A DNA stretch of 45,246 bases from a virus (IMGVR_UViG_2711768010_000017); one strand, 5' to 3'; shown: positions 3,297 through 38,150, numbered from the stretch's first letter. Translations and numbers: made by a program. Notes: generated by a model from the sequence alone, not told the origin.

Positions 3297-3848
3297 ATGC
3301 ATGACAATATTTGGTTTACATATAAAGCACGTATCCAAGCGCACCATCGACTAGAATGGCTTGAAAAACACTCTCAATTTATCCTCGTTTGGTATGCTAT
3401 ATTGAGTGCGGTACTTTCAATTGTAACGTTGCGATTTCCAAAGGTTCTAGGAGATAATACAGATGTCGTTGCGGCGATACTTTCAGTGGCTCTACTGGGT
3501 ATTTCTCTGATCGTATCTAACCTAGATTTTCGTGGTCGAGCAATAGCCATGAGAAGGAATTATATTGCACTACAGCGACTCTATTTTGACATTACCACCA
3601 GTCAACAGTTATCTCTTGAACAGAAAGAAAAATATTTTAATTTGCTCAATGAGGTTGAGAATCACCGTGACATAGATGATAAAATTTCAAGGGTAACTCA
3701 AGTTGGACTTAAGACGAGGATCCCCACACAAAAAGAAAAAATAATTGTTATTTTATGGATATTACTTCGAATATTTATTACTGCCGCACTTTATATACTC
3801 CCATTAATATATCTTTGGATTGACTATGACTGCAAGCAGAATTTTTAA
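3297..3848 (+). CDS. Membrane protein with three predicted TM helices; candidate effector partner of the downstream RT
   Basis: 183-aa ORF with AAGGA RBS; hydrophobic segments FILVWYAILSAVLSIVTL, VVAAILSVALLGISLIVSNL and C-terminal IIVILWILLRIFITAALYILPLIYLWI; AT-rich; overlaps RT start by 23 nt. Confidence 0.7.
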   Translation: MHDNIWFTYKARIQAHHRLEWLEKHSQFILVWYAILSAVLSIVTLRFPKVLGDNTDVVAAILSVALLGISLIVSNLDFRGRAIAMRRNYIALQRLYFDITTSQQLSLEQKEKYFNLLNEVENHRDIDDKISRVTQVGLKTRIPTQKEKIIVILWILLRIFITAALYILPLIYLWIDYDCKQNF

Positions 3849-5196
3849 AAAGTCATTCTCGAAAAAAAATCTTCTAAAAGTATACTCTGAAAAAATCAAA
3901 GAATCAGGAGCGATTGGCATAGATCGGATTCGCCCATCAAAACTTGATTTGACAATAAAAAATGAGATCACTTTCATTTTTGAAAAGGTTAATTCTGGCA
4001 ATTACAAATTTACAGCATATAAAGAAAAATTAATATCTAAAGGCGCTAACTCTACACCCAGACAGATTTCCATACCAACTGCTAGGGACAGAATTACTCT
4101 TAGAGCTCTCTGTGAATGCCTTACGGAAATATATCCTAAGTCCAGATTAAAACTACCACATACAGTAATTGACTCATTGAAAGAAGCATTAAACAACAGT
4201 CTATATGCTGAATATGCAAAAATAGATCTTAAAAGTTTCTATCCTTCAATTGAACATAAATTGATAATTAATGCAATAAAAAATAAAATTAGAAAAAAAG
4301 AAATTAGACAGTTAATAACATCATCATTAATCGTGCCTACTGTAAGTGGAACCACAGGAAGCAAAGGTATCCCTAATAATACCAGAGGAGTACCTCAGGG
4401 ATTAGCGATATCAAACATTTTAGCTGAAATATCACTATCTAATTTCGATGATGAAATCAATAAAATGCATGACATATGGTACATGCGATACGTTGATGAC
4501 ATTCTTATTTTAACACCAAAATATCAAGCAACAAAAATAGCTTCTCATATCATTGATAAGCTTCAATCATTAAATTTAAACCCACATCCATTAAATGAAG
4601 AGAACTCAAAATCCAAAGTAGGCAGCTTGGATGAAAGTTTCAACTTTTTGGGCTACCACATAAAAAATCGAGAATTATTGATAAAACATGAGAGCATTCT
4701 TAGATTTGAGTCATCCTTAGCAAAAATTTTTACTGCATATAGACACGCTCTACTACAAGCTAAAAATAAGCGCGATAAAGAACGAGCTGTTGCATATTGT
4801 CAGTGGAAACTAAATCTTAGAATTACGGGATGTGTGTTTGAAGGTAAACGATTGGGATGGGTATCGTACTTCTCACAAATAACGTCAACAGCTCAACTTC
4901 GAGCTGTTAATCATACGATCAATAATCTTATCCGCCGATTCGGCCTTTCATCAGAAATAAAACCAAAGTCTTTGATTAAAACTTTCTATGAACTCCGCAG
5001 GGGTAGAGCGGAGACTTTTAAATACATACCTAACTTTGACAATCTACATATATCTCAGAAACGAGAAATTGTTTCTATGTGGATAGGGAAAGAGAATGAA
5101 AAAAAACTTAGCAATAGTGAAATAGAGAGAAAATTTAAATTTAAAATTGCGAAATCAGTAAAAGAGCTTGAAGAGGACATTTCAGGGATATCATAG
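3826..5196 (+). CDS. Reverse transcriptase (defence-associated type, retron-like or UG/Abi-like; family unassigned)
   Basis: RT motifs in order: GIDRIR, RQISIPTARDRITLRAL, KIDLKSFYPSIEH, GVPQGLAISNILAEI, YMRYVDDILIL (YxDD), FNFLGYHI; about 200-aa C-terminal extension; first ATG at 3826 (track start 3820 is TTG). Confidence 0.85.
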   Translation: MTASRIFKKSFSKKNLLKVYSEKIKESGAIGIDRIRPSKLDLTIKNEITFIFEKVNSGNYKFTAYKEKLISKGANSTPRQISIPTARDRITLRALCECLTEIYPKSRLKLPHTVIDSLKEALNNSLYAEYAKIDLKSFYPSIEHKLIINAIKNKIRKKEIRQLITSSLIVPTVSGTTGSKGIPNNTRGVPQGLAISNILAEISLSNFDDEINKMHDIWYMRYVDDILILTPKYQATKIASHIIDKLQSLNLNPHPLNEENSKSKVGSLDESFNFLGYHIKNRELLIKHESILRFESSLAKIFTAYRHALLQAKNKRDKERAVAYCQWKLNLRITGCVFEGKRLGWVSYFSQITSTAQLRAVNHTINNLIRRFGLSSEIKPKSLIKTFYELRRGRAETFKYIPNFDNLHISQKREIVSMWIGKENEKKLSNSEIERKFKFKIAKSVKELEEDISGIS

Positions 5197-9355: not shown

Positions 9356-10085
9356 TCAGAATTTATAACCGACACCCACGATGAAACCGTCAGTGCGCCA
9401 GTCGCCACTGCCGGAGCCTTCATAAGCAATATCAATGGCCACGGATTCGGTCGGGTTAAACTGCACGCCAGCTCCCCACGCCAGAGACGTGTTGCTGTGG
9501 CGACCGTCATCACTTCCGGTCAGCACATCGTGCGTTTTCCCCTTATTGTCAGTTACGCGGATATAATCCCCGGAAAAAGTCGACACACGGCTGTAAGCCA
9601 CACCCGCCATCGCATACGCGCTGAACCATTCATTCACGCGCACAGACGGCCCCGCCATCACGCTGAACCAGCGGTTACGAACGGAATCTTCATGCCAGCG
9701 GGTATCGCTGTAACGGGTCAGCTGGCGATTCTTGTCTCCTGCATAGCTGAATGACGTCACCANNNNNNNNNNNNNNNNNNNNNNNNNNNNNNNNNNNNNN
9801 NNNNNNNNNNNNNNNNNNNNNNNNNNNNNNNNNNNNNNNNNNNNNNNNNNNNNNNNNNNNNNNNNNNNNNNNNNNNNNNNNNNNNNNNNNNNNCCCCAGT
9901 GTGTCCGTAAACTCATAACGGTATTTCACGTTAATCCCGTTCAGATCATCACTGCCGGGAACGTTGGTCCGGGCATGAAGATACCCCGCGCTCAGCGTGG
10001 ACTGATGTTCAGACGCCCATGCAGGCGCACCGGATACGGCCAGACAAATGGCTGCGGACAAAATTGCTGCACAAACTTTACGCAT
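9356..10085 (-). CDS. lom: Lom/Ail/PagC-family outer membrane protein, interrupted by an assembly gap (N run 9763-9893)
   Basis: N-terminal signal peptide MRKVCAAILSAAICLAVSGAPAWA and C-terminal beta-barrel end GFIVGVGYKF; position between J and stf as in lambda. Confidence 0.7.
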
Positions 10086-30060: not shown

Positions 30061-30484
30061 TCAGTGACTTAAGGTTGTGATTCCGGAGGAGTCTTCAGAG
30101 AACCAGTAATTCTTCCTGGTAGCTTTCCTTTGTAGGTTATCCAAACATTCTGCGNNNNNNNNNNNNNNNNNNNNNNNNNNNNNNNNNNNNNNNNNNNNNN
30201 NNNNNNNNNNNNNNNNNNNNNNNNNNNNNNNNNNNNNNNNNNNNNNNNNNNNNNNNNNNNNNNNNNNNNNNNNNNNNNNNNNNNNNNNNNNNNNNNNNNN
30301 NNNNNNNNNNNNNNNNNNNNNNNNNNNNNNNNNNNNNNNNNNNNNNNNNNNNNNNNNNNNNNNNNNNNNNNNNNNNNNNNNNNNNNNNNNNNNNNNNNNN
30401 NNNNNNNNNNNNAAACCAGTACCCGGCACTACCTGCTGAGGTGCCATAGGCGACACCCGTTGTTAACTTATCCATGGATTTCAT
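30061..30484 (-). CDS. Holin, split by assembly gap (N run 30155-30412); dual-start MKSM motif
   Basis: [25 protein letters not shown]-terminus with GAGGTGG RBS; only the 24-codon N-terminal piece and a C-terminal piece are resolved. Confidence 0.5.
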
Positions 30485-30551
30485 AACCCCACCTCGCAGA
30501 TGCGGGTGCTGTGTAATGGAAATAAAAAGGCCACCTGACGTGGCCACCAGA

Positions 30552-31604
30552 TTATTTCCCCACCAGCTCGTTTATCTCTTTCACTGTCTGATTAAACCGC
30601 TCTGACTCAAGCTCAACACCTAAGGCCCGACGCCCCAGCGCCATTGCTGCTTTTATTGTGGAACCGGATCCCATAAAAAAATCAGCAACCAGATCACCTG
30701 GTCGACTACTGGCATTGATTATTTGCCTGAGCATATCCGCCGGTTTCTCACACGGATGTTTCCCCGGGTAGAACTGAACGGGTTTATGCATCCAGACATC
30801 GGTATAAGGCACGGAGACTGATACGGAGAAATAGCGCCGGAGAGATTTAAACTCATCCAGCAATTCAGAATATTTACGATTCAGTGAATCATAAGATGCC
30901 ACCAGCTGGTGGTGTGGTTGTTCCAGTTGTTGTTCCTGAAACTTCTCTGCCGCTATACGGGAAAACAGTGCCTGTAACTTCCGATAGTCAGCCTCATTCG
31001 GCAACTGCCACTGACTGGCACCAAACCAGTGGGAAACCATATTTTTCTTACCTGTGGCTTCGGCAATTTGTTTTGCCGTTATACCCAGTTCGGCACGAGC
31101 ATCCCTGAAATACGATATCAGCGGTGCCATTATGTGCTGTTTGAGTTCCCTTTCTTTTGCCGCATAGCCGTCACTTTTGCCGCGATATGGCCCCTGGTAA
31201 TGTTCAGCAAACAGAACGCGCTCTGTGGCAGGAAAATATGCGCGCAGACTTTCTTTATTACACCCATTCCAACGTCCGGACGGCTTCGCCCAGATGATAT
31301 GGTTAAGCACGTTGAAACGTTCACGCATCATGATCTCAATATCAGATGCCAGGCGATGCCCACAGAACAGGTAAAGGCTTCCGGCAGGTTTCAACACCCG
31401 CCAGAACTGGGCCAGACAGTGGTCCAGCCACTTAAGGTAATCTTCGTCCCCTTTCCACTGATTGTCCCAACCGTTGGGTTTCACCTTGAAGTAAGGCGGA
31501 TCGGTAACAATCAGGTCAATGGAATCATCAGGCAGGGACTGAATAAAATGCAGGCAATCAGCGTTGATTAAATCAACACTGTTTATTTTTACAGTATTTT
31601 TCAT
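30552..31604 (-). CDS. DNA methyltransferase (N6-adenine/N4-cytosine, beta-class motif order)
   Basis: DLIVTDPPY near the N-terminus and FFMGSGST (FxGxG) near the C-terminus. Confidence 0.85.
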
Positions 31605-31754
31605 GGATCAGTAAGCGTAACTCTGGTAGGCTCACTCTGCTTTTGCGCTAAAGCAGTGGGCCGTGGTTCGCTTGTGACCAGTAAGCATGAGCGAATGGCT
31701 GGCAGGTGCTACCAACACCCACCAGCCGCCCATTTTCACAGCAGGAAACCGCCA

Positions 31755-31982
31755 TTACTGGCAGCGTCTGAATTTATTCCCGTACCCGCCGTTATCCTTC
31801 GCCAGACCCGCCAGAACTAACTGAGTCAGTATTAACTGGCACCGGGCTTCGCTTACTCCGGTAGTTCTCGTCATCATGCGTGGCGTTACCCACTTGTCAG
31901 CAGGTAAGAAATGAAGGACTGCGGCGGCGGTTTCTGTCATATCTTGCTGTTTTAGCATGTCTTTTTCCCTTCTGGTTAACAT
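31755..31982 (-). CDS. Small hypothetical protein (possible winged-helix regulator)
   Basis: 75-aa ORF between the lipoprotein moron and the methyltransferase; no confident family assignment. Confidence 0.3.
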   Translation of the reverse strand: MLTRREKDMLKQQDMTETAAAVLHFLPADKWVTPRMMTRTTGVSEARCQLILTQLVLAGLAKDNGGYGNKFRRCQ

Positions 31983-32077
31983 GACATACCAATAACTCTT
32001 GTCTAAAAAGCCAGCAAGATAAAAAGTCAGTATTCACGACCACCAGCGTGTTTACTGTACTGCACCAAGTTTACGGG

Positions 32078-32104
32078 TACAAAAAACCCGCTCAGTGGCG
32101 GGTT
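32078..32104 (-). terminator. Rho-independent terminator downstream of the lipoprotein gene
   Basis: cccgc-tcagtg-gcggg hairpin with A/T extension, followed on the minus strand by TTTTTTGT; near-identical copy at 32755-32783. Confidence 0.6.
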
Positions 32105-32181
32105 GCTATCACAGCTATATATTTACTTATTATGCCGTTACTAACATTTATCTTCGACATATAATCGAAAACAAGGTTTGC

Positions 32182-32598
32182 TTAAAACTCTGCTTTCATT
32201 TTATCCGGGAATTTTTTATTTGCAGCATAATAACTACCAAGTACATAAGCGTTCATTTGCTGCTCTACATCAACCCGACATGCCGCACTAGAACAAGCTC
32301 CACTGATAAGCCCAAAAGAACTCCCTTTAGCAGAGAGATCAGCTTTGATTTCCTCTACAGTGTTTTTCCCCATAGCAACTACACACCCTGTCACAATATA
32401 TCTAGCTTTCACATCATCCATGCTAAGGATAGTAGTTTTCGCAATTTTGCTGTATCCATCATTTTTATAAACATCCATGGCAAACGCACGGCAATCTGTA
32501 TAATACGGACTTGCTTTAACTTGCGAATACTCAGGTAATTTCATACCTGCACAACCAACTAAACAAAAACCTATCGCTGCTATTAATACCTTTTTCAT
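32182..32598 (-). CDS. Lipoprotein moron (function unknown)
   Basis: MKKVLIAAIGFCLVGCAG lipobox signal peptide; AT-rich gene flanked by duplicated terminator hairpins; alternative start at 32607. Confidence 0.7.
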   Translation of the reverse strand: MKKVLIAAIGFCLVGCAGMKLPEYSQVKASPYYTDCRAFAMDVYKNDGYSKIAKTTILSMDDVKARYIVTGCVVAMGKNTVEEIKADLSAKGSSFGLISGACSSAACRVDVEQQMNAYVLGSYYAANKKFPDKMKAEF

Positions 32599-32754
32599 TA
32601 CAGTCATAACCTAGAAGCATCATTGAAACTAATTTATTAAATAACCATCGAGTTTCTGGAATACAGACGTTAACCATCTCTCCAAAATCTAAAAGATAAT
32701 AAGAAAAAATGTTTAACGCACCAATCCATTTCATAGTTTCATGAGACATCAGGC

Positions 32755-32783
32755 ACAAAAAACCCGCTCAGCGGCGGGTTTTT
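32755..32783 (-). terminator. tR-prime-like terminator just downstream of Q (hairpin also has T-run on plus strand)
   Basis: acccgc-tcagcg-gcgggt hairpin flanked by A-run (plus 32755-32762) and T-run (32779-32783). Confidence 0.6.
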
Positions 32784-32886
32784 GACATTTACCAACGGTA
32801 GACATACAAGGCCCATCGTTGAGAAAATCTTATCCATATTTTTTGAAAAATGCAAGTATCACGTCGACATCTTCGGCGAAAATTAT

Positions 32887-33681
32887 CTATCTTGTCACTT
32901 TTCTCAATTGCGATTCAGCATACGCTTCTTCCTGCCAGCACTTTGTAACCAGTTTATTAATAACGTCTGCATATCCTTTGTACCACTGATAATCCGTCAG
33001 GTCCGGTACCAGTTTCTGGACATGATGCCGCGCCAGTGTGGTTGGTAAACGGCTAAACCGGTTGCCATTGCAACGCCCACAAATCTTATAAACAGGCACA
33101 CCATGAAGCCGGGTTCTTTTTTCATCCAGGACAATACCTTTACCCTTACACCCTCTGCACGCTGTGCTGACTTCTCCCTTACCATGGCAATGCTGACATA
33201 GTTCCTTCACCCACTCTTCCTTGATAACAGATTCCCCGCTTCTGGAGTGTTTCACCACTTCGCGCAATACATTATGAAATCCAGTACCAGCACAATGCTC
33301 ACAGCGAGCCTTACTTGCCGCAGACCTGGAATAATCAGCAAAGGCAAAATTCACAAGGTAAGGGATGATCTGTAACCGGGTTTCTTCACTCAATTTGTTC
33401 AATGTCGGGTTATCCAGTGCCATCGCGTAATTGAGCAGACCTTCAATCGCAAATTGAGGATCCTGAACACCAACTTTTGCCAGGAATAAGGCAAACCCAA
33501 GCGGTGCTTTCGACTGCACCATCCCCTGCGCAGCCATCACATCCGTAATCGTTAAACCACCTGAGCCTGTCGCCGGTGCGTCATCGCTCAATTTTGGAGA
33601 TTTTGGGGAGTAATATTTTGGTAAGGCTTCAAGGTTCATGCTCGTTCTCCACTTACGCCAATACGCCAATTGCCAGCGCAC
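32887..33681 (-). CDS. Late-gene antiterminator Q-like protein (zinc-binding)
   Basis: Cys-rich CEHCAGTG...CQHCHGKG...CRGCKGKG...CGRCNG; position immediately upstream of terminator and lysis genes; track start is GTG, alternative ATG at 33639. Confidence 0.65.
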   Translation of the reverse strand: MRWQLAYWRKWRTSMNLEALPKYYSPKSPKLSDDAPATGSGGLTITDVMAAQGMVQSKAPLGFALFLAKVGVQDPQFAIEGLLNYAMALDNPTLNKLSEETRLQIIPYLVNFAFADYSRSAASKARCEHCAGTGFHNVLREVVKHSRSGESVIKEEWVKELCQHCHGKGEVSTACRGCKGKGIVLDEKRTRLHGVPVYKICGRCNGNRFSRLPTTLARHHVQKLVPDLTDYQWYKGYADVINKLVTKCWQEEAYAESQLRKVTR

Positions 33682-34648
33682 GATCGATAAAACGAAATAT
33701 CAGCTCCAGCTGGGAGCCATACTTCTCTTCAAATGCCACGGTATCCGCATGCAGCTCGTCGTGATGCTTTCTGCACAAAGGCAACACAAAGAGGTCATGC
33801 GCTTTTGTACCCATTCCACCCTGACCGTGGCCTATCAGGTGGTGGGGATCATCAGCAGGCTTTCCACAACATGCACACGGCTGTGTCTTAACCCAGCGCG
33901 TGTACTTTTCATTAACCCAGCGGCGGCGTTTTGGGCGTAACATAAAAGACTCCGGCGACTCCGGATCCACTTTCAGCGCCAGCACCTTTTTTGCCTTATC
34001 CTGGATGATGCTGGTGGCAGGAACCGAAGGCACAAGGTCACTTTCCCGGGTGACAGACGGCACAACAGGCTTTGGTAATCTCAGTGCCTTACGGGCTGCA
34101 CTTTCCGGTAAGGCATCCGCCAGGTCATTACGAATCAGCCACCAGCACAGTTCCGGCATTGTCACAACGTGACTATCATCAAAACCGAGATCCCGACGCA
34201 CAACAGACAACACCCAGCGGGCACAGTTATCCGTTGCCATTGATTCCAGCCGTTCCGTGAACTGATCGCGCAGCTGGTTATCGCAGTGCCAGCACAGACG
34301 GATTGCGCCCGGAGCGTGTCGCATTGTGGTCATGTTCTCGCTGTGCCAGTCGGAATGAGGCCACTGGCAGCCTTTTTCACGAAGTAACCAGCTTTCAAGA
34401 CATTCCACGCCACCAGCACGACGGATCACTGCCTCATTGCGGAACACGGCCCGAACGGCAGGATCATCCGCCAGCGGTTGTGATGCCGCCGGAACGGCAC
34501 CACTGGCGAAAGATGAATAACGTTCCGGCTCAGGCTCCAGCAGAACACGCCCCTGCATAAACAGGGGCATCAGCTCTGAACCTGGCCTGAACAATACGAT
34601 CCCCATACGCGGGGCAATTTCAGGGGTCAGTAGTGCTCTCACGGTCAC
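33653..34648 (-). CDS. Nin-region protein with C-terminal Cys/His (HNH-like) motif, DUF968-like by recollection
   Basis: C-terminal CACCGKPADDPHHLIGHGQGG...CRKHHDELH; track start is GTG with GAGG RBS. Confidence 0.45.
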   Translation of the reverse strand: MTVRALLTPEIAPRMGIVLFRPGSELMPLFMQGRVLLEPEPERYSSFASGAVPAASQPLADDPAVRAVFRNEAVIRRAGGVECLESWLLREKGCQWPHSDWHSENMTTMRHAPGAIRLCWHCDNQLRDQFTERLESMATDNCARWVLSVVRRDLGFDDSHVVTMPELCWWLIRNDLADALPESAARKALRLPKPVVPSVTRESDLVPSVPATSIIQDKAKKVLALKVDPESPESFMLRPKRRRWVNEKYTRWVKTQPCACCGKPADDPHHLIGHGQGGMGTKAHDLFVLPLCRKHHDELHADTVAFEEKYGSQLELIFRFIDRALAIGVLA

Positions 34649-34649
34649 C

Positions 34650-35459
34650 TCAATGAACGGTATCGAGCAGCTTTAACAGCTCAGGGAATCGGGATTCGAA
34701 GAAATGCGGCTGCGTCTCGCGCGGATTTGCAGGACTGGTGATGTTCTTGCCGAACATGCAGCCTTTCGCCGTCAGCGACCAGAATTTTTTGATGTTGTTA
34801 ATCGCGGTACGGCTGTATCGTTCGCGTTGTTCAACGATCCCCAGCTTCACCATCTGGTGATATGCCTGATTAGCCGTCAGGCGGATACCATACTGCTTCA
34901 GCAGTGCACTCAGCGACAGCGTGGGGCGACTTGAGCCATCAGGCGCGTCAGCAGGAGCATCAATGGCATAGCGCGGTGCCAGATTCGGTAAGCCAACAGC
35001 CTCCTGAAGCTTCTGACAGGCTCCAAGCACTGATGAGTTAGACAGATTTAATTCCCGGCGCATAAAGTCCAGCAGGATCACGCCAGCCTGCATCTTGTCA
35101 GCAGCCTGTCCGGATAATTTTTCCGGTGCGCTGGTTACCATGTCGAAAGTACGGATCACCTTCAGATGGAATGACGGGCTGATCCACATTGCATAGGCAT
35201 ACACCAGTTCTTTGCAGACATACGTCCCCTGGTTATTTCCGCCATTAATGACGCTAACTGGTTGATTTTGTTCCAGAGGCGGAATTCCACCCTCGGTGAA
35301 AAGTTGTTCAATCAATTCACAGGTTTGCTTATTGGAGAGCCAGTATTTCGGGCGGTTTTTTTGTTCTCCCCCGGCTGCCCTGTGCAGATCGTTCAGGCTG
35401 TAACGCCCATAAGCATCACGACGAACTTCAATACCATCAATGACCATCAGATTATTCAT
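34650..35459 (-). CDS. KilA-N domain protein
   Basis: N-terminal MNNLMVIDGIEVRRDAYGRYSLNDLHRAAGG...KNRPKYWLSNKQT is KilA-N like; ATG at 35459 with strong AGAGGAGA RBS. Confidence 0.65.
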   Translation of the reverse strand: MNNLMVIDGIEVRRDAYGRYSLNDLHRAAGGEQKNRPKYWLSNKQTCELIEQLFTEGGIPPLEQNQPVSVINGGNNQGTYVCKELVYAYAMWISPSFHLKVIRTFDMVTSAPEKLSGQAADKMQAGVILLDFMRRELNLSNSSVLGACQKLQEAVGLPNLAPRYAIDAPADAPDGSSRPTLSLSALLKQYGIRLTANQAYHQMVKLGIVEQRERYSRTAINNIKKFWSLTAKGCMFGKNITSPANPRETQPHFFESRFPELLKLLDTVH

Positions 35460-35478
35460 ACTTCGTTTCTCCTCTTGA

Positions 35479-35868
35479 TCAGGCGGCTGCACCCGCCGGT
35501 TTCTCATACTTACTGATAGTGATCTCGACCTTCCCTTTCTGGATAACCGGTCCCCACTCCACCAGCATTCTTTTCACCTGGCTGTCGTCTTCCCACACCC
35601 CCGCGTGGGTCAGGGCGTCAAACAGCGCCTTGTTATAGTTGTCCAGATCGCGGATCCGGTTATCCGGAGGAAACAACACGATCTCCACTGAAGCAGGTGC
35701 CGACGTTGGTTTTGGCAGACGACGTAACTGCTCAACTATTGCTGCGCACGCCGCGCTCTGAAATTTTCGCCCCGCCGCGCTTATCAGGCTCTTACCAGCA
35801 AATGCCCCTTTGTTGGGGTGTCGCCAGTACGTGTTCACGCTGGGCGGGAAAGGCAGGATCAGCTTCAT
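35479..35868 (-). CDS. rusA: Holliday junction resolvase RusA
   Basis: 129 aa with RusA-like motifs (PPSVNTYWRHPNKG, DLDNYNKALFDALTHAGVWEDDSQV). Confidence 0.85.
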   Translation of the reverse strand: MKLILPFPPSVNTYWRHPNKGAFAGKSLISAAGRKFQSAACAAIVEQLRRLPKPTSAPASVEIVLFPPDNRIRDLDNYNKALFDALTHAGVWEDDSQVKRMLVEWGPVIQKGKVEITISKYEKPAGAAA

Positions 35869-36191
35869 ACTTTCAGGCCTCTCTCATGTAACCAGTGGGT
35901 TGCACGCAGCCTGGCGTTTTCCTCACCGGCAAGCAGTGAGCGGATAATCCCGACCGCCTCGCTGTCGTCGTCCTTCACCGCGGTATGAAGAGTGATACCC
36001 CGGGCCATGCCACGCTTTATCGTGATGACGCCTTTTTTCTCCAGTGCGCGAAGATGTTCCACCGCTGCATTCACTGAACGGTATCCCAGCATGGTTGCCA
36101 CCTCCTGATTGGTTGGCGGGAAGCCACGTTCTTTCTGGTAAGAAATCAGCATATCCAGCACCTGCTGCTGGCATTGAGTTAACGTCGTCAT
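35865..36191 (-). CDS. LexA N-terminal DNA-binding-domain homolog lacking the S24 peptidase domain
   Basis: LTQCQQQVLDMLISYQKERGFPPTNQEVATMLGYRSVNAAVEHLRALEKKGVITIKRGMARGITL aligns by eye with E. coli LexA residues about 3-70; only 108 aa. Confidence 0.7.
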   Translation of the reverse strand: MTTLTQCQQQVLDMLISYQKERGFPPTNQEVATMLGYRSVNAAVEHLRALEKKGVITIKRGMARGITLHTAVKDDDSEAVGIIRSLLAGEENARLRATHWLHERGLKV

Positions 36192-36841
36192 GCCGCCATC
36201 TCCCTGACCAGTTTTTCCGCCTGCTGGCGAACCTGCGCCAGAAACGCCTCACCACATGCCTCAAGTTCATCGCGCCCGATGTAGCTGATTGCCGGTCCCT
36301 TCCAGGTCTTGTCGAAAACAGCAATAGCACCAGCGAAGAAAGCGCCTGTCGGCACCTGCTTCTCGTCCTTCGGGATAAACCAGGCAGGCAGTTCAAAACC
36401 AATACGCCCGCGAATAAAAGCAATATGATCTGCATCTTCCGGCCACCACACTTCGCTGGTGGCAGCTTTGATCAGGAAAACATAGCGTCCGCCCTTATCA
36501 CGCATGGCACTGGCATGTTTCATGATGTAACGCATGCCGGTGATGTATTGCCCTTCATGCTGACTGGCGCGGCTGTACGGGGGATTACCAAAGGCAGCAC
36601 CTTTAAGCTCCGCAAGACGTTCAGACCAGTCATGCGCCAGCGCGTTGTCTTCCGCAGTGTAATAAGCGGCACATTTGGCGTTATCACCATCAGTGAACAG
36701 ATCCAGAACAAACGGGCCAAACAGGGTGTTAATTCCCCAGAAAATGTTATCCGGCGTGCGCCACTGATCGCCCACTTCCTTCAGTTCATGGGCTGGTTTG
36801 TTCCGCAGCTCCACCAGCGCCTGGCAATATTTATTACTCAT
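36188..36841 (-). CDS. Phage Dam-like N6-adenine DNA methyltransferase
   Basis: FGNPPYS (NPPY) motif; first ATG at 36841 (track start 36874 is GTG). Confidence 0.75.
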   Translation of the reverse strand: MSNKYCQALVELRNKPAHELKEVGDQWRTPDNIFWGINTLFGPFVLDLFTDGDNAKCAAYYTAEDNALAHDWSERLAELKGAAFGNPPYSRASQHEGQYITGMRYIMKHASAMRDKGGRYVFLIKAATSEVWWPEDADHIAFIRGRIGFELPAWFIPKDEKQVPTGAFFAGAIAVFDKTWKGPAISYIGRDELEACGEAFLAQVRQQAEKLVREMAA

Positions 36842-37329
36842 TAAGCCCCCACGTAATTCCCTGACAGATACCACTCTTCACCCGATGCAGCGCGCTTGCT
36901 GCTTTTCCGTAAGCACCGCTCACGACGCGCCAGAAAATTGTTTCGTTCTGGCTGGGAGTGGCTTTCACGGAATGCCGCCATCCACACCGTTGCAGCACGA
37001 CGGTATAAGCCCCTGGACTCCAGTTCTTCCGCCTGGCGGGTCAGGCACAAAATCACCCGGGGATCGTTAGTGCCGACATAGAAATTGCGCACAGGTCTGG
37101 TTTCACGAACTGGTTGTGGTTCCGGCTCCTGCGCTCTCTCAGTCAGGCGTGGGAAATGTCTGCGTGTATCTCCTTCATAACGGTGAGCCACACGCCCACT
37201 CTGACGTAACTTGCTTGCTGACTGCAGAACGCGCTGCCGTGAGTAACCTGCAAAAGCATCCGCAATGTCTCCGGAAGTACACCCCGGATGGGCTTCAATG
37301 AATTTCTGAACTTCATTCAAAAGACTCAT
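36841..37329 (-). CDS. Hypothetical early protein (PerC-like by recollection)
   Basis: 162 aa from ATG at 37329; central LESRGLYRRAATVWMAAFRE segment. Confidence 0.35.
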   Translation of the reverse strand: MSLLNEVQKFIEAHPGCTSGDIADAFAGYSRQRVLQSASKLRQSGRVAHRYEGDTRRHFPRLTERAQEPEPQPVRETRPVRNFYVGTNDPRVILCLTRQAEELESRGLYRRAATVWMAAFRESHSQPERNNFLARRERCLRKSSKRAASGEEWYLSGNYVGA

Positions 37330-37331
37330 GA

Positions 37332-38150
37332 TCACCCCCTGAATCCTGCCGGGATCTGGCTGTAGTCCACGTTGTCGTAACTGGCTTTGAAGTACGGGTC
37401 CTCGCGTCTGGCTGCAGATACCGCAGGAACTTCCCAGAATTCTTCGAAATGACGATCCGGACCAAAGAACGTGACAGCCTGTTTCACAAATTGTGTGCCG
37501 CTGTTACCCATCGCAGATACCCATCCCGCGTAGCGTTTCACACCTTCCAGCATGGTTTCGGGGTTTACTCCCTCATTCAAACGGGCTTTCCAGGCTTTGA
37601 AGGCTGCAGATTTTGAATTGCCACCAGCACGTTTGGGATATGCCAGCCATGCCTGCTCAAACTCCGGAGAGTATTCCGGTCGGTTTGAACGAACTCGCAC
37701 GGACTCATCAACTGATGCACCAACAGCTATTGGTTCATTGACTGGTTCTTTGACTGGTTCAAAAGAGTGACTGGTTCTGGGTGAATCTCCTGCACTACCC
37801 CCTGGTGCAACTCCTGCACTACCTGGTGAATTTGCTGCACCAGATAGTGAATTATTTGCACTACCCCCTAGTGAATCTCCTGCACCATCCAGATGAAGGA
37901 GATAGATATTACTTGAGTTACCTTTTTCACCTTTCCGGGTGACTTTTTTTACCAGCCCGGACTCACAAAGGGCCGCAATATGATTCATCACAGAACGTTT
38001 GCTAATTTCGCACTGGTCAGCAATATGCTGGTAGCTGGGCCAGCACTCACCCTGATCGCTGGCATTATCAGCCAGCTTGATCAGAACCAGTTTTCGCAAT
38101 GGATTACCCACTCGAATTTTCATCGCTTTAACCATCAGCTCCATACTCAT
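37332..38150 (-). CDS. Replication initiator (lambda O-like: N-terminal winged-helix, repeat-encoded linker)
   Basis: N-terminal LRKLVLIKLADNASDQGECWPSYQHIADQCEISKRSVMNHIAALCESGLVKK; linker GGSANNSLSGAANSPGSAGVAPGGSAGDSP encoded by DNA direct repeats. Confidence 0.55.
   Translation of the reverse strand: MSMELMVKAMKIRVGNPLRKLVLIKLADNASDQGECWPSYQHIADQCEISKRSVMNHIAALCESGLVKKVTRKGEKGNSSNIYLLHLDGAGDSLGGSANNSLSGAANSPGSAGVAPGGSAGDSPRTSHSFEPVKEPVNEPIAVGASVDESVRVRSNRPEYSPEFEQAWLAYPKRAGGNSKSAAFKAWKARLNEGVNPETMLEGVKRYAGWVSAMGNSGTQFVKQAVTFFGPDRHFEEFWEVPAVSAARREDPYFKASYDNVDYSQIPAGFRG
37741..37890. repeat. Iteron-like direct repeats inside the replication gene (candidate origin)
   Basis: Repeated units such as gtgaatctcctgcactaccc and actggttc recur 3-4 times within about 150 bp. 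Confidence 0.4.

What the first reader, a model, noticed from the sequence alone, without database searches (positions are those of the whole stretch)
30552..36841. Two distinct DNA methyltransferases in one prophage
A beta-class enzyme (DPPY then FxGxG; 30552-31604) next to the lysis genes and a phage Dam-like enzyme (NPPY; 36188-36841) in the nin-like region. Neither has an adjacent restriction endonuclease candidate, which suggests orphan methyltransferases used for anti-restriction or epigenetic control.
Basis: partly seen in the sequence, partly recalled or inferred. Interest (0 to 1): 0.4.

Follow-up and report, generated by a model that had tools for sequence, protein, structure and literature searches.

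The report
Two known orphan prophage DNA methyltransferases
A lambda-like E. coli prophage carries two stand-alone adenine methylases: a close relative of the non-specific enzyme M.EcoGII among its late genes, and a small phage 'Dam' among its early genes. This pairing is common and already sequenced many times, but the first gene always comes with a small winged-helix gene and a conserved structured RNA leader that matched no Rfam family and turned up in no paper I could search.

Summary
Both genes are real, intact and at exactly the stated coordinates on the minus strand.

**MT1 (30552-31604, 350 aa)** is a beta-class PF01555 enzyme, with DPPY before FxGxG.
- It is 100% identical to the phage cdtI protein.
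- It is 81% identical to M.EcoGII, the characterised non-specific adenine methyltransferase that is silent in lysogens.
- It is 89% identical to the tested ancestral reconstruction Anc291.
- It lies between antiterminator Q and the lysis genes, with an intrinsic terminator-like site immediately downstream, so it is very probably a Q-dependent late gene.

**MT2 (36188-36841, 217 aa)** is a PF05869/TIGR01712 phage N-6-adenine methyltransferase with an NPPY motif.
- It is translationally coupled inside the early nin-like operon.
- It is an optional cassette, present in 48 of 64 related loci.
- Its GATC specificity is inferred only from distant relatives (31-42% identity).

No restriction-enzyme candidate is adjacent to either gene. 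The 6.3-kb segment occurs in 306 of 5,426 complete E. coli genomes and in many sequenced phages, so the finding is already known and ordinary.

**Extra observation:** MT1 is invariably preceded by a 67-75 aa winged-helix ORF and a ~130-nt leader with four hairpins. The leader is under purifying selection, shows covariation and has no Rfam match. It may be a control module for a toxic enzyme.

The parts
30552..31604 (-). MT1: beta-class N6-adenine methyltransferase of the M.EcoGII family (350 aa)
   Evidence: PF01555 at E 2e-42. PADLOC MTase_II at 505 bits. 81% identity to M.EcoGII and 89% to Anc291. 100% aa identity to the phage cdtI protein.
31491..31502 (-). MT1 catalytic motif IV, DPPY (aa 35-38)
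   Evidence: Read from the sequence and found by the motif scan.
30663..30677 (-). MT1 AdoMet-binding motif I, FxGxG (FMGSG, aa 310-314)
   Evidence: Read from the sequence. It lies C-terminal to DPPY, which is the beta-class order.
30520..30545 (-). Intrinsic terminator-like hairpin plus T-run between MT1 and the holin gene
   Evidence: Terminator scan. The same feature is annotated as a terminator in phages Ayreon and SfV.
31605..31734 (-). Conserved structured leader: a closing helix plus four hairpins, ending about 8 nt before the MT1 ATG. There is no Shine-Dalgarno sequence, and GATC is conserved at 31606-31609.
   Evidence: MFE -65.3 kcal/mol, z -3.55. No Rfam match at E<=1. Found in 48 species, with an MT1 homologue starting 129-135 nt downstream in 45 of them. 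Pair counts and covariation beat both controls. Leader identity is 0.87 against 0.54 at third codon positions.
31755..31982 (-). orf75: a small winged-helix protein, phrog_331. The conserved start gives 67 aa (31755-31958). It always lies about 150 nt upstream of MT1.
   Evidence: PHROG hit. Present in 78 of 80 related loci at a fixed distance. All 27 cross-checkable phage records have an MT1 homologue downstream. AF2 pLDDT 84 with a winged-helix fold.
32078..32104 (-). Intrinsic terminator-like site after the low-GC lipoprotein moron, upstream of the orf75-MT1 cassette
   Evidence: Terminator scan. SfV has an annotated terminator between Q and orf47.
32887..33681 (-). Antitermination protein Q, which defines the start of the late operon that contains MT1
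   Evidence: PF03589 at E 7e-54 and phrog_127.
36188..36841 (-). MT2: small phage N-6-adenine methyltransferase (PF05869/TIGR01712, 217 aa). Its start and stop form ATGA overlaps with the neighbouring genes.
   Evidence: Family hits. 100% aa identity to phage PhiR40_1. RefSeq WP_000066917.1 in an identical segment. Cassette present in 48 and absent in 16 related loci.
36575..36586 (-). MT2 catalytic motif NPPY (aa 86-89)
   Evidence: Motif scan. Invariant in alignments with M.EcoVT2Dam and the staphylococcal phage 80 Dam/PamA-type protein.
36841..37335 (-). PerC-like (YfdN) gene immediately upstream of MT2; not a nuclease
   Evidence: PF06069 and RefSeq annotation.
35865..36191 (-). Protein with only a LexA DNA-binding domain, immediately downstream of MT2; not a nuclease
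   Evidence: PF01726 at E 2e-19.

Best explanation
The window holds a lambdoid E. coli prophage with two unrelated, stand-alone N6-adenine methyltransferases expressed at different stages of lytic growth.

**MT1** is a member of the M.EcoGII family. These are beta-class enzymes that methylate adenine in any sequence context.
- It sits in the Q-dependent late transcript between Q and the lysis cassette, with a terminator-like site immediately downstream and another further upstream beyond orf75.
- It is therefore silent in the lysogen. (Its position is shown; its expression timing is inferred from that position and from published data on homologues.)
- It is made only shortly before packaging, when its toxicity no longer matters.
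- The likely consequence is heavily m6A-modified progeny DNA that resists many adenine-methylation-sensitive restriction systems in the next host. (Inferred.)

**MT2** is a small PF05869/TIGR01712 phage 'Dam'.
- It is translationally coupled within the early nin-like operon as an optional 650-nt cassette.
- It most likely methylates GATC on replicating phage DNA. (Inferred from distant characterised relatives.)

Neither enzyme is part of a restriction-modification system.

MT1 belongs to a conserved three-part cassette: a winged-helix ORF, a ~130-nt structured RNA leader and the MTase gene. This suggests dedicated post-transcriptional or transcriptional control of a toxic enzyme. (Hypothesis.)
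For: **Identity of MT1**
- Strong family hits.
- 81% identity over the full length to M.EcoGII, using the sequence from PMC11551740 Suppl. Table S1.
- 89% identity to Anc291.
- M.EcoGII is non-specific on DNA (PMC5778455). All the ancestral reconstructions methylated DNA. On RNA, M.EcoGII, Anc291 and SUPREM showed no motif.
- 81% identity to the phage 1720a-02 MTase, which the M.EcoGII paper names as a close relative.

**Silence in lysogens and toxicity of homologues**
- PMC5778455, PMC4659465 and PMC12707154.

**Late-operon position**
- Q, then [moron plus terminator], orf75, MT1, terminator, holin.
- SfV and 1720a-02 have the same order. In 1720a-02 and phiP27, stx2 lies directly downstream.

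**Identity of MT2**
- Family hits.
- NPPY and flanking motifs are conserved with M.EcoVT2Dam (GATC, cited in PMC6602927). They are also conserved with a 141-aa staphylococcal phage Dam that matches PamA's published features (DpnI sensitivity, PMC12435837).

**Orphan status**
- All neighbours are assigned to non-nuclease families, and PADLOC shows no restriction partner.

**Purifying selection on MT1**
- Identity is 0.89 at codon positions 1+2 against 0.54 at position 3.

**Prevalence**
-.
Against: - No activity was or could be measured here.
- MT1 differs from M.EcoGII at 19% of positions, including in the putative target-recognition region, so retained non-specificity is an extrapolation. It is bracketed by tested proteins, but not proven.
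- MT2 is only 31-42% identical to the characterised GATC enzymes. It is not M.EcoGV, which is an MT-A70 protein. Its AlphaFold model failed with pLDDT 38.7. Its specificity is therefore the weakest link.
- GATC is neither depleted nor enriched in the prophage: 126 observed against 135 expected.
- The anti-restriction role of M.EcoGII-type enzymes is itself an inference in the literature, not a demonstrated phage phenotype.
- The late promoter PR' was not located by the simple promoter scan.
Confidence: 0.8

Rival explanations
1. MT1 is a sequence-specific orphan Type II methyltransferase that marks the host genome in the lysogen and acts as an epigenetic regulator.
For: It matches generic Type II MTase models. 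RefSeq sometimes names it 'site-specific DNA-methyltransferase'. About a quarter of residues 161-240, which overlap the published TRD of M.EcoGII, differ from M.EcoGII.
Against: It is 81% identical to M.EcoGII and 89% to Anc291. M.EcoGII is non-specific on DNA, and M.EcoGII, Anc291 and SUPREM showed no motif on RNA. Homologues M.EcoGI, M.EcoGII and M.EcoMV give no methylation signal in lysogens, M.EcoMV is judged inactive by RT-PCR, and M.EcoGII is toxic when expressed. The gene lies in the late operon with terminator-like sites downstream and further upstream.
Confidence: 0.07
2. One or both enzymes act mainly on RNA (rRNA or mRNA) rather than DNA. This would resemble the Stx-prophage MT-A70 enzyme M.EcoPA8orf6770P, which needs a small partner protein. 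In this reading orf75 would be MT1's partner subunit.
For: A prophage 'DNA adenine MTase' turned out to be a 16S rRNA methyltransferase when bound to a small partner (PMC10810198). M.EcoGII methylates RNA in vitro. A small conserved ORF always precedes MT1.
Against: That enzyme belongs to a different family (MT-A70, DPPW), and no such motif exists in the window. M.EcoGII alone methylates DNA about 90-fold faster than RNA: V0 11.1 against 0.12 (PMC11551740 Table S3). It needs no partner for up to 99% DNA methylation in vitro and more than 85% in vivo. PF05869 relatives give GATC methylation on DNA.
Confidence: 0.06
3. MT2 is not an anti-restriction or GATC enzyme. Instead it has a different or relaxed specificity, or it serves phage DNA metabolism (replication, mismatch-repair avoidance or packaging control) in the way P1 Dmt does.
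For: It is only 31-42% identical to the characterised GATC members and has a 10-aa insertion and a longer C-terminus. Host Dam already makes GATC methylation in E. coli. MT2 is embedded among recombination and replication genes (RusA, replication protein). It is dispensable, being absent from 16 of 64 related loci. P1 needs its own Dam for packaging (PMC12707154).
Against: It scores well above the cutoff of the TIGR01712 equivalog model. GATC specificity is shared by family members as distant as staphylococcal PamA and E. coli VT2 Dam.
Confidence: 0.25
4. One or both genes are decaying, non-functional prophage cargo.
For: Many E. coli prophages are defective. No activity has been shown for these exact alleles.
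Against: Both ORFs are full length with intact catalytic and AdoMet motifs. They are identical or nearly identical to genes of plaque-forming phages such as cdtI, mEp460, Ayreon and PhiR40_1. MT1 shows strong purifying selection across 44 species.
Confidence: 0.03

Closest known systems
M.EcoGII / M.EcoGI (E. coli O104:H4 C227-11 prophages; non-specific adenine MTases, beta class)
   Same: Nearly the same length (350 against 349 aa), the same motif order (DPPY ... FxGxG) and 81% identity over the whole protein. It is prophage-borne and lies between Q and the lysis or stx genes, as in phage 1720a-02, which the M.EcoGII paper cites.
   Different: 19% of residues differ. The window allele belongs to the cdtI/mEp460/SfV-orf48 sub-branch, which is closer to the reconstructed Anc291 (89%). 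Its activity has not been measured.
M.EcoVT2Dam (VT2-Sakai orf32), S. aureus PamA and phage T1 Dam: small phage Dam enzymes of PF05869
   Same: Same Pfam family. WxTP, F-LD, NA-C, NPPY and GR-F motifs are shared. All are orphans in the early or nin-like region of a temperate phage. The characterised members give GATC methylation.
   Different: Identity is only 31-32% to VT2 Dam and 42% to the PamA-type protein. MT2 is longer (217 aa against 175 and 141) with an internal insertion and a C-terminal helix. Its specificity is untested. It has no PDB relative by sequence.
Phage Mu com-mom (a toxic adenine-modifying enzyme under dedicated control)
   Same: MT1 is an adenine-modifying, broad anti-restriction enzyme that is silent in the lysogen and toxic. 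It is preceded by a small gene and a structured leader, and its start codon lacks a Shine-Dalgarno sequence. An Aeromonas phage homologue of MT1 has a 'Com-like translational regulator' annotated at the same place (H235).
   Different: orf75 is a winged-helix protein, not a Com zinc finger. The enzyme is a methyltransferase, not Mom. No regulatory interaction has been shown, and the predicted fold does not obviously sequester the AUG.
M.EcoPA8orf6770P / M.EcoGV (the MT-A70 prophage methyltransferase of Stx phages)
   Same: It is another 'DNA adenine methylase' annotated in lambdoid prophages, and it can co-occur with the two families found here.
   Different: It belongs to a different family (DPPW, MT-A70), has a different position (early-left operon) and acts on 16S rRNA with a partner. 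No such gene is present in this window.

Membership tests
Beta-class N6/N4 amino-methyltransferases (Pfam PF01555) | Profile match above the curated threshold | tested here: met
   145.9 bits against a cutoff of 26.7, covering profile positions 1-220 of 221.
Beta-class N6/N4 amino-methyltransferases (Pfam PF01555) | Motif order: catalytic (D/N/S)PP(Y/F) N-terminal, then TRD, then AdoMet FxGxG C-terminal | tested here: met
   DPPY at aa 35-38 and FMGSG at aa 310-314.
M.EcoGII family (non-specific adenine MTases of enterobacterial prophages) | Full-length close sequence similarity to M.EcoGII or M.EcoGI | tested here: met
   81% identity over 349 aligned positions. The reference sequence comes from an OCR'd supplement, so the true value may be slightly higher. 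Identity to Anc291 is 89%.
M.EcoGII family (non-specific adenine MTases of enterobacterial prophages) | Methylates adenine in any sequence context | not testable with these tools
   This needs expression in a methylation-free host followed by LC-MS, SMRT or nanopore analysis.
M.EcoGII family (non-specific adenine MTases of enterobacterial prophages) | Prophage location, silent in the lysogen | tested here: inconclusive
   The location is met: a lambdoid prophage late operon with terminator-like sites downstream and further upstream. Silence cannot be tested from sequence.
M.EcoGII family (non-specific adenine MTases of enterobacterial prophages) | Four-helix-bundle TRD (residues about 160-237 in the published AlphaFold model) | not tested
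The region aligns without gaps to M.EcoGII.
Phage N-6-adenine-methyltransferase (Pfam PF05869 / NCBIfam TIGR01712) | Profile match above the curated thresholds | tested here: met
   PF05869 at 156 bits against 28.1. TIGR01712 equivalog at 255.6 bits against 97.05, covering the full profile.
Phage N-6-adenine-methyltransferase (Pfam PF05869 / NCBIfam TIGR01712) | Catalytic NPPY and the family's conserved N-terminal motifs | tested here: met
   N86-P-P-Y89, W27-x-T-P30 and F44-x-L-D47 are invariant against VT2 Dam and the phage 80 Dam.
Phage N-6-adenine-methyltransferase (Pfam PF05869 / NCBIfam TIGR01712) | GATC specificity | not testable with these tools
   Inferred only from relatives at 31-42% identity.
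Type II restriction-modification system | A cognate restriction endonuclease gene adjacent to the methyltransferase | tested here: not met
   MT1's neighbours are orf75 (winged helix) and the holin. MT2's neighbours are a PerC-like gene and a LexA-DNA-binding-domain gene. There are no PADLOC restriction-enzyme hits. The nearest nuclease-like genes, RusA and the DUF968 HNH gene, are common lambdoid genes, and they are present in related loci that lack MT2.
com-mom-type control module (small regulator + RNA leader + toxic DNA-modification gene) | Small regulator gene and structured leader directly upstream of the modification gene | tested here: met
   orf75 is present in 78 of 80 loci. The leader is conserved in 48 species with covariation.
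com-mom-type control module (small regulator + RNA leader + toxic DNA-modification gene) | The regulator is a Com-type zinc finger that binds the leader and activates translation | tested here: not met
   orf75 is predicted to be a winged-helix domain with no zinc-finger motif. Binding and activation cannot be tested here. The resemblance is therefore functional at most, not membership.

The most novel reading that the evidence does not exclude
The M.EcoGII-type gene is not a lone moron. It is the last part of a conserved, undescribed three-part cassette: a 67-aa winged-helix protein, a ~130-nt four-hairpin RNA leader and the methyltransferase gene. The leader has no Rfam family, and the MTase start codon has no Shine-Dalgarno sequence. 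In this reading the leader, possibly bound by the winged-helix protein, gates synthesis of a toxic, genome-wide adenine methylase to the last minutes of lytic growth. That would be a functional analogue of Mu com-mom built from unrelated parts. The invariant GATC just 5' of the start codon could even couple this control to Dam or MT2 methylation.
Probability: 0.4. Interest if true: 0.5.

Novelty: already known. Interest (0 to 1): 0.2.

Why it matters
The two genes themselves add nothing new. Identical proteins are already in RefSeq and in sequenced phages. MT1's family includes a commercial reagent (EcoGII methyltransferase, per my own knowledge rather than a tool result).

The evaluation has two practical values.

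- **Annotation.** The gene RefSeq labels 'DNA-methyltransferase' or 'site-specific DNA-methyltransferase' can be labelled as an M.EcoGII-type, probably non-specific, late-expressed enzyme. Lysogen methylomes will not reveal it.
- **A testable lead.** The conserved winged-helix gene and RNA leader in front of every M.EcoGII-type gene may explain how phages keep this toxic enzyme silent. That question is relevant to phage anti-restriction biology and to anyone expressing EcoGII-like enzymes.

Tried and rejected
1. **Solved structures.** MT1 has only distant beta-class relatives (RsrI, CcrM and others). MT2 has none.
2. **AlphaFold model of MT2.** I used a 16-sequence alignment in which all homologues were at least 76% identical. 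The model failed with mean pLDDT 38.7, so I discarded it and ran no fold search.
3. **Equating MT2 with named C227-11/STEC enzymes.** M.EcoVT2Dam is the same family but only 31% identical. M.EcoGV turned out to be the MT-A70 enzyme, not this family. Fang et al. 2012 is not held in the library.
4. **The Gong et al. rRNA-methyltransferase story.** I considered it for these genes and rejected it: different family, and no DPPW motif in the window.
5. **Rfam scan of 30400-33000 at E<=1.** Only three sub-threshold chance-level hits, none on the leader.
6. **RNAalifold on the MAFFT alignments.** It recovered only part of the leader structure, because loop indels misalign the 3' arms. I used per-hairpin folding, explicit pair counting and covariance-model re-alignment instead.
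7. **Simple sigma-70 scan.** It did not locate PR' or a promoter for MT1.
8. **GATC frequency in the prophage.** Uninformative: 126 observed against 135 expected.
9. **Literature search for the leader sequence.** No paper found.
10. **Supplement of the M.EcoGII paper.** Not held.
11. **One Python regex** failed on the first attempt and I rewrote it.

Full report
**1. Observation**

The region is transcribed on the minus strand.

- The first ORF matches Pfam PF01555 N6_N4_Mtase (E 2.2e-42). The second matches PF05869 'Dam' (E 9.7e-46).
- NCBIfam assigns the second to the equivalog TIGR01712, 'phage N-6-adenine-methyltransferase' (255.6 bits, cutoff 97).
- PHROGs and PADLOC agree with both assignments.
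- In MT1, DPPY (aa 35-38) precedes FxGxG (aa 310-314), which is the beta-class order. MT2 has NPPY at aa 86-89.
- A six-frame scan shows these are the only two (D/N/S)PP(Y/F/W/H) motifs in long open frames in the whole 45-kb window. There is therefore no third methyltransferase and no MT-A70 (DPPW) gene.

**2. Context**

The window is a lambdoid E. coli prophage.
- It has terminase and tail genes at 5.3-28.2 kb, and a holin/YdfR/lysozyme/Rz lysis cassette at 29.0-30.5 kb. The holin is partly masked by Ns at 30155-30412.
- MT1 follows. Next come a small ORF, a low-GC lipoprotein moron and Q.
- After Q come a DUF968 HNH gene, KilA-N, RusA, a LexA-DNA-binding-domain protein, MT2, a PerC-like gene, replication genes, a CI-like repressor and an integrase.
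- E. coli strain A14 has a 100% identical 6.3-kb segment. RefSeq annotates it with the same two CDS, as 'DNA-methyltransferase' and 'phage N-6-adenine-methyltransferase'.

None of the neighbours is a restriction-endonuclease candidate, and PADLOC finds only the two MTases.

**3. What MT1 is**

At the DNA level MT1 is 97-99% identical to genes of phages Ayreon, cdtI, mEp460 and SfV (orf48). At the protein level it is 100% identical to the cdtI protein.

[quoted passage not shown] According to PMC5778455, M.EcoGII:
- is 349 aa and beta class;
- is encoded on a prophage of E. coli O104:H4 C227-11;
- is not expressed in the lysogen and is deleterious when expressed constitutively.

I took the M.EcoGII sequence from Supplementary Table S1 of PMC11551740 (machine-read, so it has a few OCR errors).
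- MT1 is 81% identical to it over the full length.
- MT1 is 89% identical to the reconstructed ancestor Anc291.
- MT1 is 81% identical to the phage 1720a-02 enzyme, which the M.EcoGII authors name as a close relative.
- M.EcoGII is non-specific on DNA. All the ancestral reconstructions methylated DNA. On RNA, M.EcoGII, Anc291 and the deeper ancestor SUPREM showed no discernible motif. MT1 is thus bracketed by enzymes that behave non-specifically.
- Other studies treat 93-99% homologues as 'non-specific, inactive in the lysogen' (PMC6602927; PMC4659465).

I conclude with high confidence that MT1 is an M.EcoGII-family enzyme. Non-specificity of this exact allele remains inferred.

**4. How MT1 is probably used**

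MT1 lies between Q and the lysis genes on the same strand.
- A terminator-like hairpin with a T-run follows it at 30520-30545. Another lies upstream at 32078-32104.
- In SfV the authors annotated the order Q, terminator, orf47, orf48 (the MT1 homologue), terminator, S-R-Rz.
- In 1720a-02 and phiP27 the stx2 genes, which are classic PR'/Q-dependent late genes, lie directly downstream of the MT1 homologue.

This placement explains the published silence in lysogens. It fits the accepted idea that the enzyme is switched on only when the prophage enters lytic growth, so that progeny DNA is protected against many restriction systems (PMC5778455; PMC12707154). The position is shown. The timing and the anti-restriction role are inferred.

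**5. What MT2 is**

MT2 is 100% identical to the phage PhiR40_1 protein. It is 97-99% identical at the DNA level to genes in cdtI, 1720a-02, and Stx2a and Stx2c phages.

It belongs to the small phage Dam family, but only distantly to the characterised members.
- It is 31-32% identical to M.EcoVT2Dam (VT2-Sakai orf32, 175 aa, also PF05869). That enzyme is reported to target GATC (PMC6602927 citing Radlinska & Bujnicki 2001).
- It is 42% identical to the 141-aa Dam of staphylococcal phage 80. That protein matches the published features of PamA (141 aa, NPPY at 64-67, C-terminal Q). PamA makes DNA DpnI-sensitive (PMC12435837).
- The WxTP, F-LD, NA-C, NPPY and GR-F motifs are invariant among the three proteins.
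- MT2 is not M.EcoGV, which is the MT-A70 enzyme studied by Gong et al..

GATC is therefore the best guess for MT2, at roughly 70%, but it is only an inference.

MT2's start and stop codons overlap its neighbours as ATGA, so it is translationally coupled within the early operon. Among 80 close relatives of the MT1 locus in IMG/VR, 48 have PerC-MT2-LexA-like. In 16, PerC abuts the LexA-like gene directly, exactly 650 nt shorter. MT2 is thus an optional cassette.

**6. Prevalence and novelty**

- More than 600 viral contigs encode near-identical MT1.
- At least 80% of the 6.3-kb segment is present in 306 of 5,426 complete E. coli genomes, and parts of it in 3,818.
- The two-methyltransferase layout occurs in cdtI, mEp460_4F5, PhiR40_1, 1720a-02, Stx2c phages and others.

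The finding is already known and ordinary.

That check was a lysogen-versus-cured methylome, to be refuted by 'no new motif'.
- MT1's family has no motif and is silent in lysogens.
- MT2's likely product is masked by host Dam.

**7. What I noticed beyond the finding: the small ORF**

A small ORF precedes MT1 by about 150 nt at 31755-31982. The conserved start gives 67 aa, at 31755-31958.
- It is present in 78 of the 80 IMG/VR loci. One of the two exceptions has only 58 nt of upstream flank.
- In the phage collection, all 27 records that can be cross-checked have its homologue 145-190 nt upstream of an MT1 homologue.
- This holds even where the small protein is only about 50% identical, as in SfV orf47/orf48, phiP27, Hafnia yong2, Providencia PSTRCR_117lys and Klebsiella Kp4866-6.
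- It has no Pfam family above threshold. It gives only weak MarR/TrmB/DnaD-N hits.
- AlphaFold2 gives a confident winged-helix fold (pLDDT 84), with only generic winged-helix matches in the PDB.
- Its third helix, RCQLILTQL, is invariant across the family.

**8. What I noticed beyond the finding: the leader**

The ~130 nt between this ORF and the MT1 ATG (31605-31734) fold unusually well: -65.3 kcal/mol, z -3.55, with 0 of 200 shuffles folding as well. The opposite strand folds less well, at z -2.40. The region has no Rfam match at E<=1.

*Distribution.* A pattern from its first hairpin occurs in 48 species representatives, mostly Enterobacterales. In 45 of these an MT1 homologue of 58-93% identity starts 129-135 nt downstream. 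Two of the other three are cut by the locus end. All six loci that were found through protein similarity rather than through the motif also have the leader.

*Structure.* The proposed structure is a closing helix (UGGGC/GCCCA) plus four hairpins.
- Every sequence variant of each hairpin folds.
- On the unfitted MAFFT alignment, 82% of cells pair, against 31-51% when partners are slid by one to three columns.
- The covariation score is 0.115, against 0.067 or less for the slid controls, and 0 of 500 shuffles reach it.
- After covariance-model re-alignment, 84% of cells pair and the score is 0.124.
- The second hairpin's outer stem has compensatory changes at 4 of its 6 pairs. One pair reads CG:24, AU:12, UA:6, UG:4.
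- G-U wobble pairs are abundant, which argues for RNA on the sense strand rather than a DNA palindrome.

*Selection.* Leader identity to the window averages 0.87. That equals codon positions 1+2 of MT1 (0.89) and is far above third positions (0.54), in all 44 comparisons.

*Caveats.*
- The motif search fixes about 20% of the leader positions.
- The sequences are related to one another.
- The structure was derived from one member of the set.

*Other features.* The MT1 start has no Shine-Dalgarno sequence, and GATC is conserved immediately 5' of the ATG.

Taken together, these features suggest a dedicated control cassette for a toxic enzyme. It would be analogous to Mu com-mom in logic, but not homologous to it. 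This is a hypothesis, not a result.

**9. Verdict**

Orphan status is supported and anti-restriction is plausible. Lysogen epigenetics is unlikely for MT1, and the proposed test is unsound.
- The feature is already known.
- Interest is low for the finding as stated. There is a moderate side lead in the winged-helix, leader and MTase cassette.

Noticed in passing
window 31605-31982 (minus strand): A conserved cassette lies upstream of MT1. It consists of a 67-75 aa winged-helix ORF (phrog_331, no Pfam family) and a ~130-nt four-hairpin RNA leader. The leader has no Rfam match. It is found in 48 species, nearly always 129-135 nt before an M.EcoGII-type gene. It is under purifying selection and shows compensatory base changes.
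   Followed up: yes
window 31606-31609: A GATC site immediately 5' of the MT1 start codon is invariant or nearly so across 49 leaders (GATCYATG), and the start codon has no Shine-Dalgarno sequence. This may link MT1 expression to Dam or MT2 methylation, or it may be coincidence.
   Followed up: no
window 36188-36841: MT2 is a clean optional cassette. In related loci PerC-MT2-LexA-like occurs 48 times, and PerC directly abutting LexA-like occurs 16 times, exactly 650 nt shorter. ATGA start/stop overlaps are present at the junctions.
   Followed up: partly
window 3297-5196 (plus strand), next to the integrase at 1668-2765: A low-GC (33-37%) two-gene defence island lies between the integrase and the tail-fibre genes. 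It encodes an RT-associated SLATT protein (183 aa) followed by a UG17-class defence reverse transcriptase (458 aa; PADLOC RT_UG17, E 1e-158).
   Followed up: partly
window 32182-32607 (minus strand): A low-GC (38%) 141-aa predicted lipoprotein moron (phrog_4748) with its own strong terminator lies between Q and the orf75-MT1 cassette. It is present in only 10 of 80 related loci.
   Followed up: partly
window 30155-30412, 9763-9893, 15135: There are runs of N (masked sequence). The first removes most of the holin (essD-like) gene and part of the YdfR-family gene just downstream of MT1. The identical E. coli A14 segment shows what is hidden.
   Followed up: partly
window 35865-36191 (minus strand): A 108-aa protein consists only of a LexA-type DNA-binding domain, with no peptidase domain. 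It is translationally coupled downstream of MT2 and conserved in nearly all related loci. Its function is unknown.
   Followed up: no
L102 and other loci; Aeromonas phage phiARM81ld (H235): More distant MT1 homologues (N15, PY54, phiKO2, Vibrio and Aeromonas phages; 48-60% identity) gave no orf75 homologue in the tblastn search of the phage collection. One of them has a 'Com-like translational regulator' annotated at the equivalent position. This hints that different small regulators may have been recruited to the same enzyme family.
   Followed up: no
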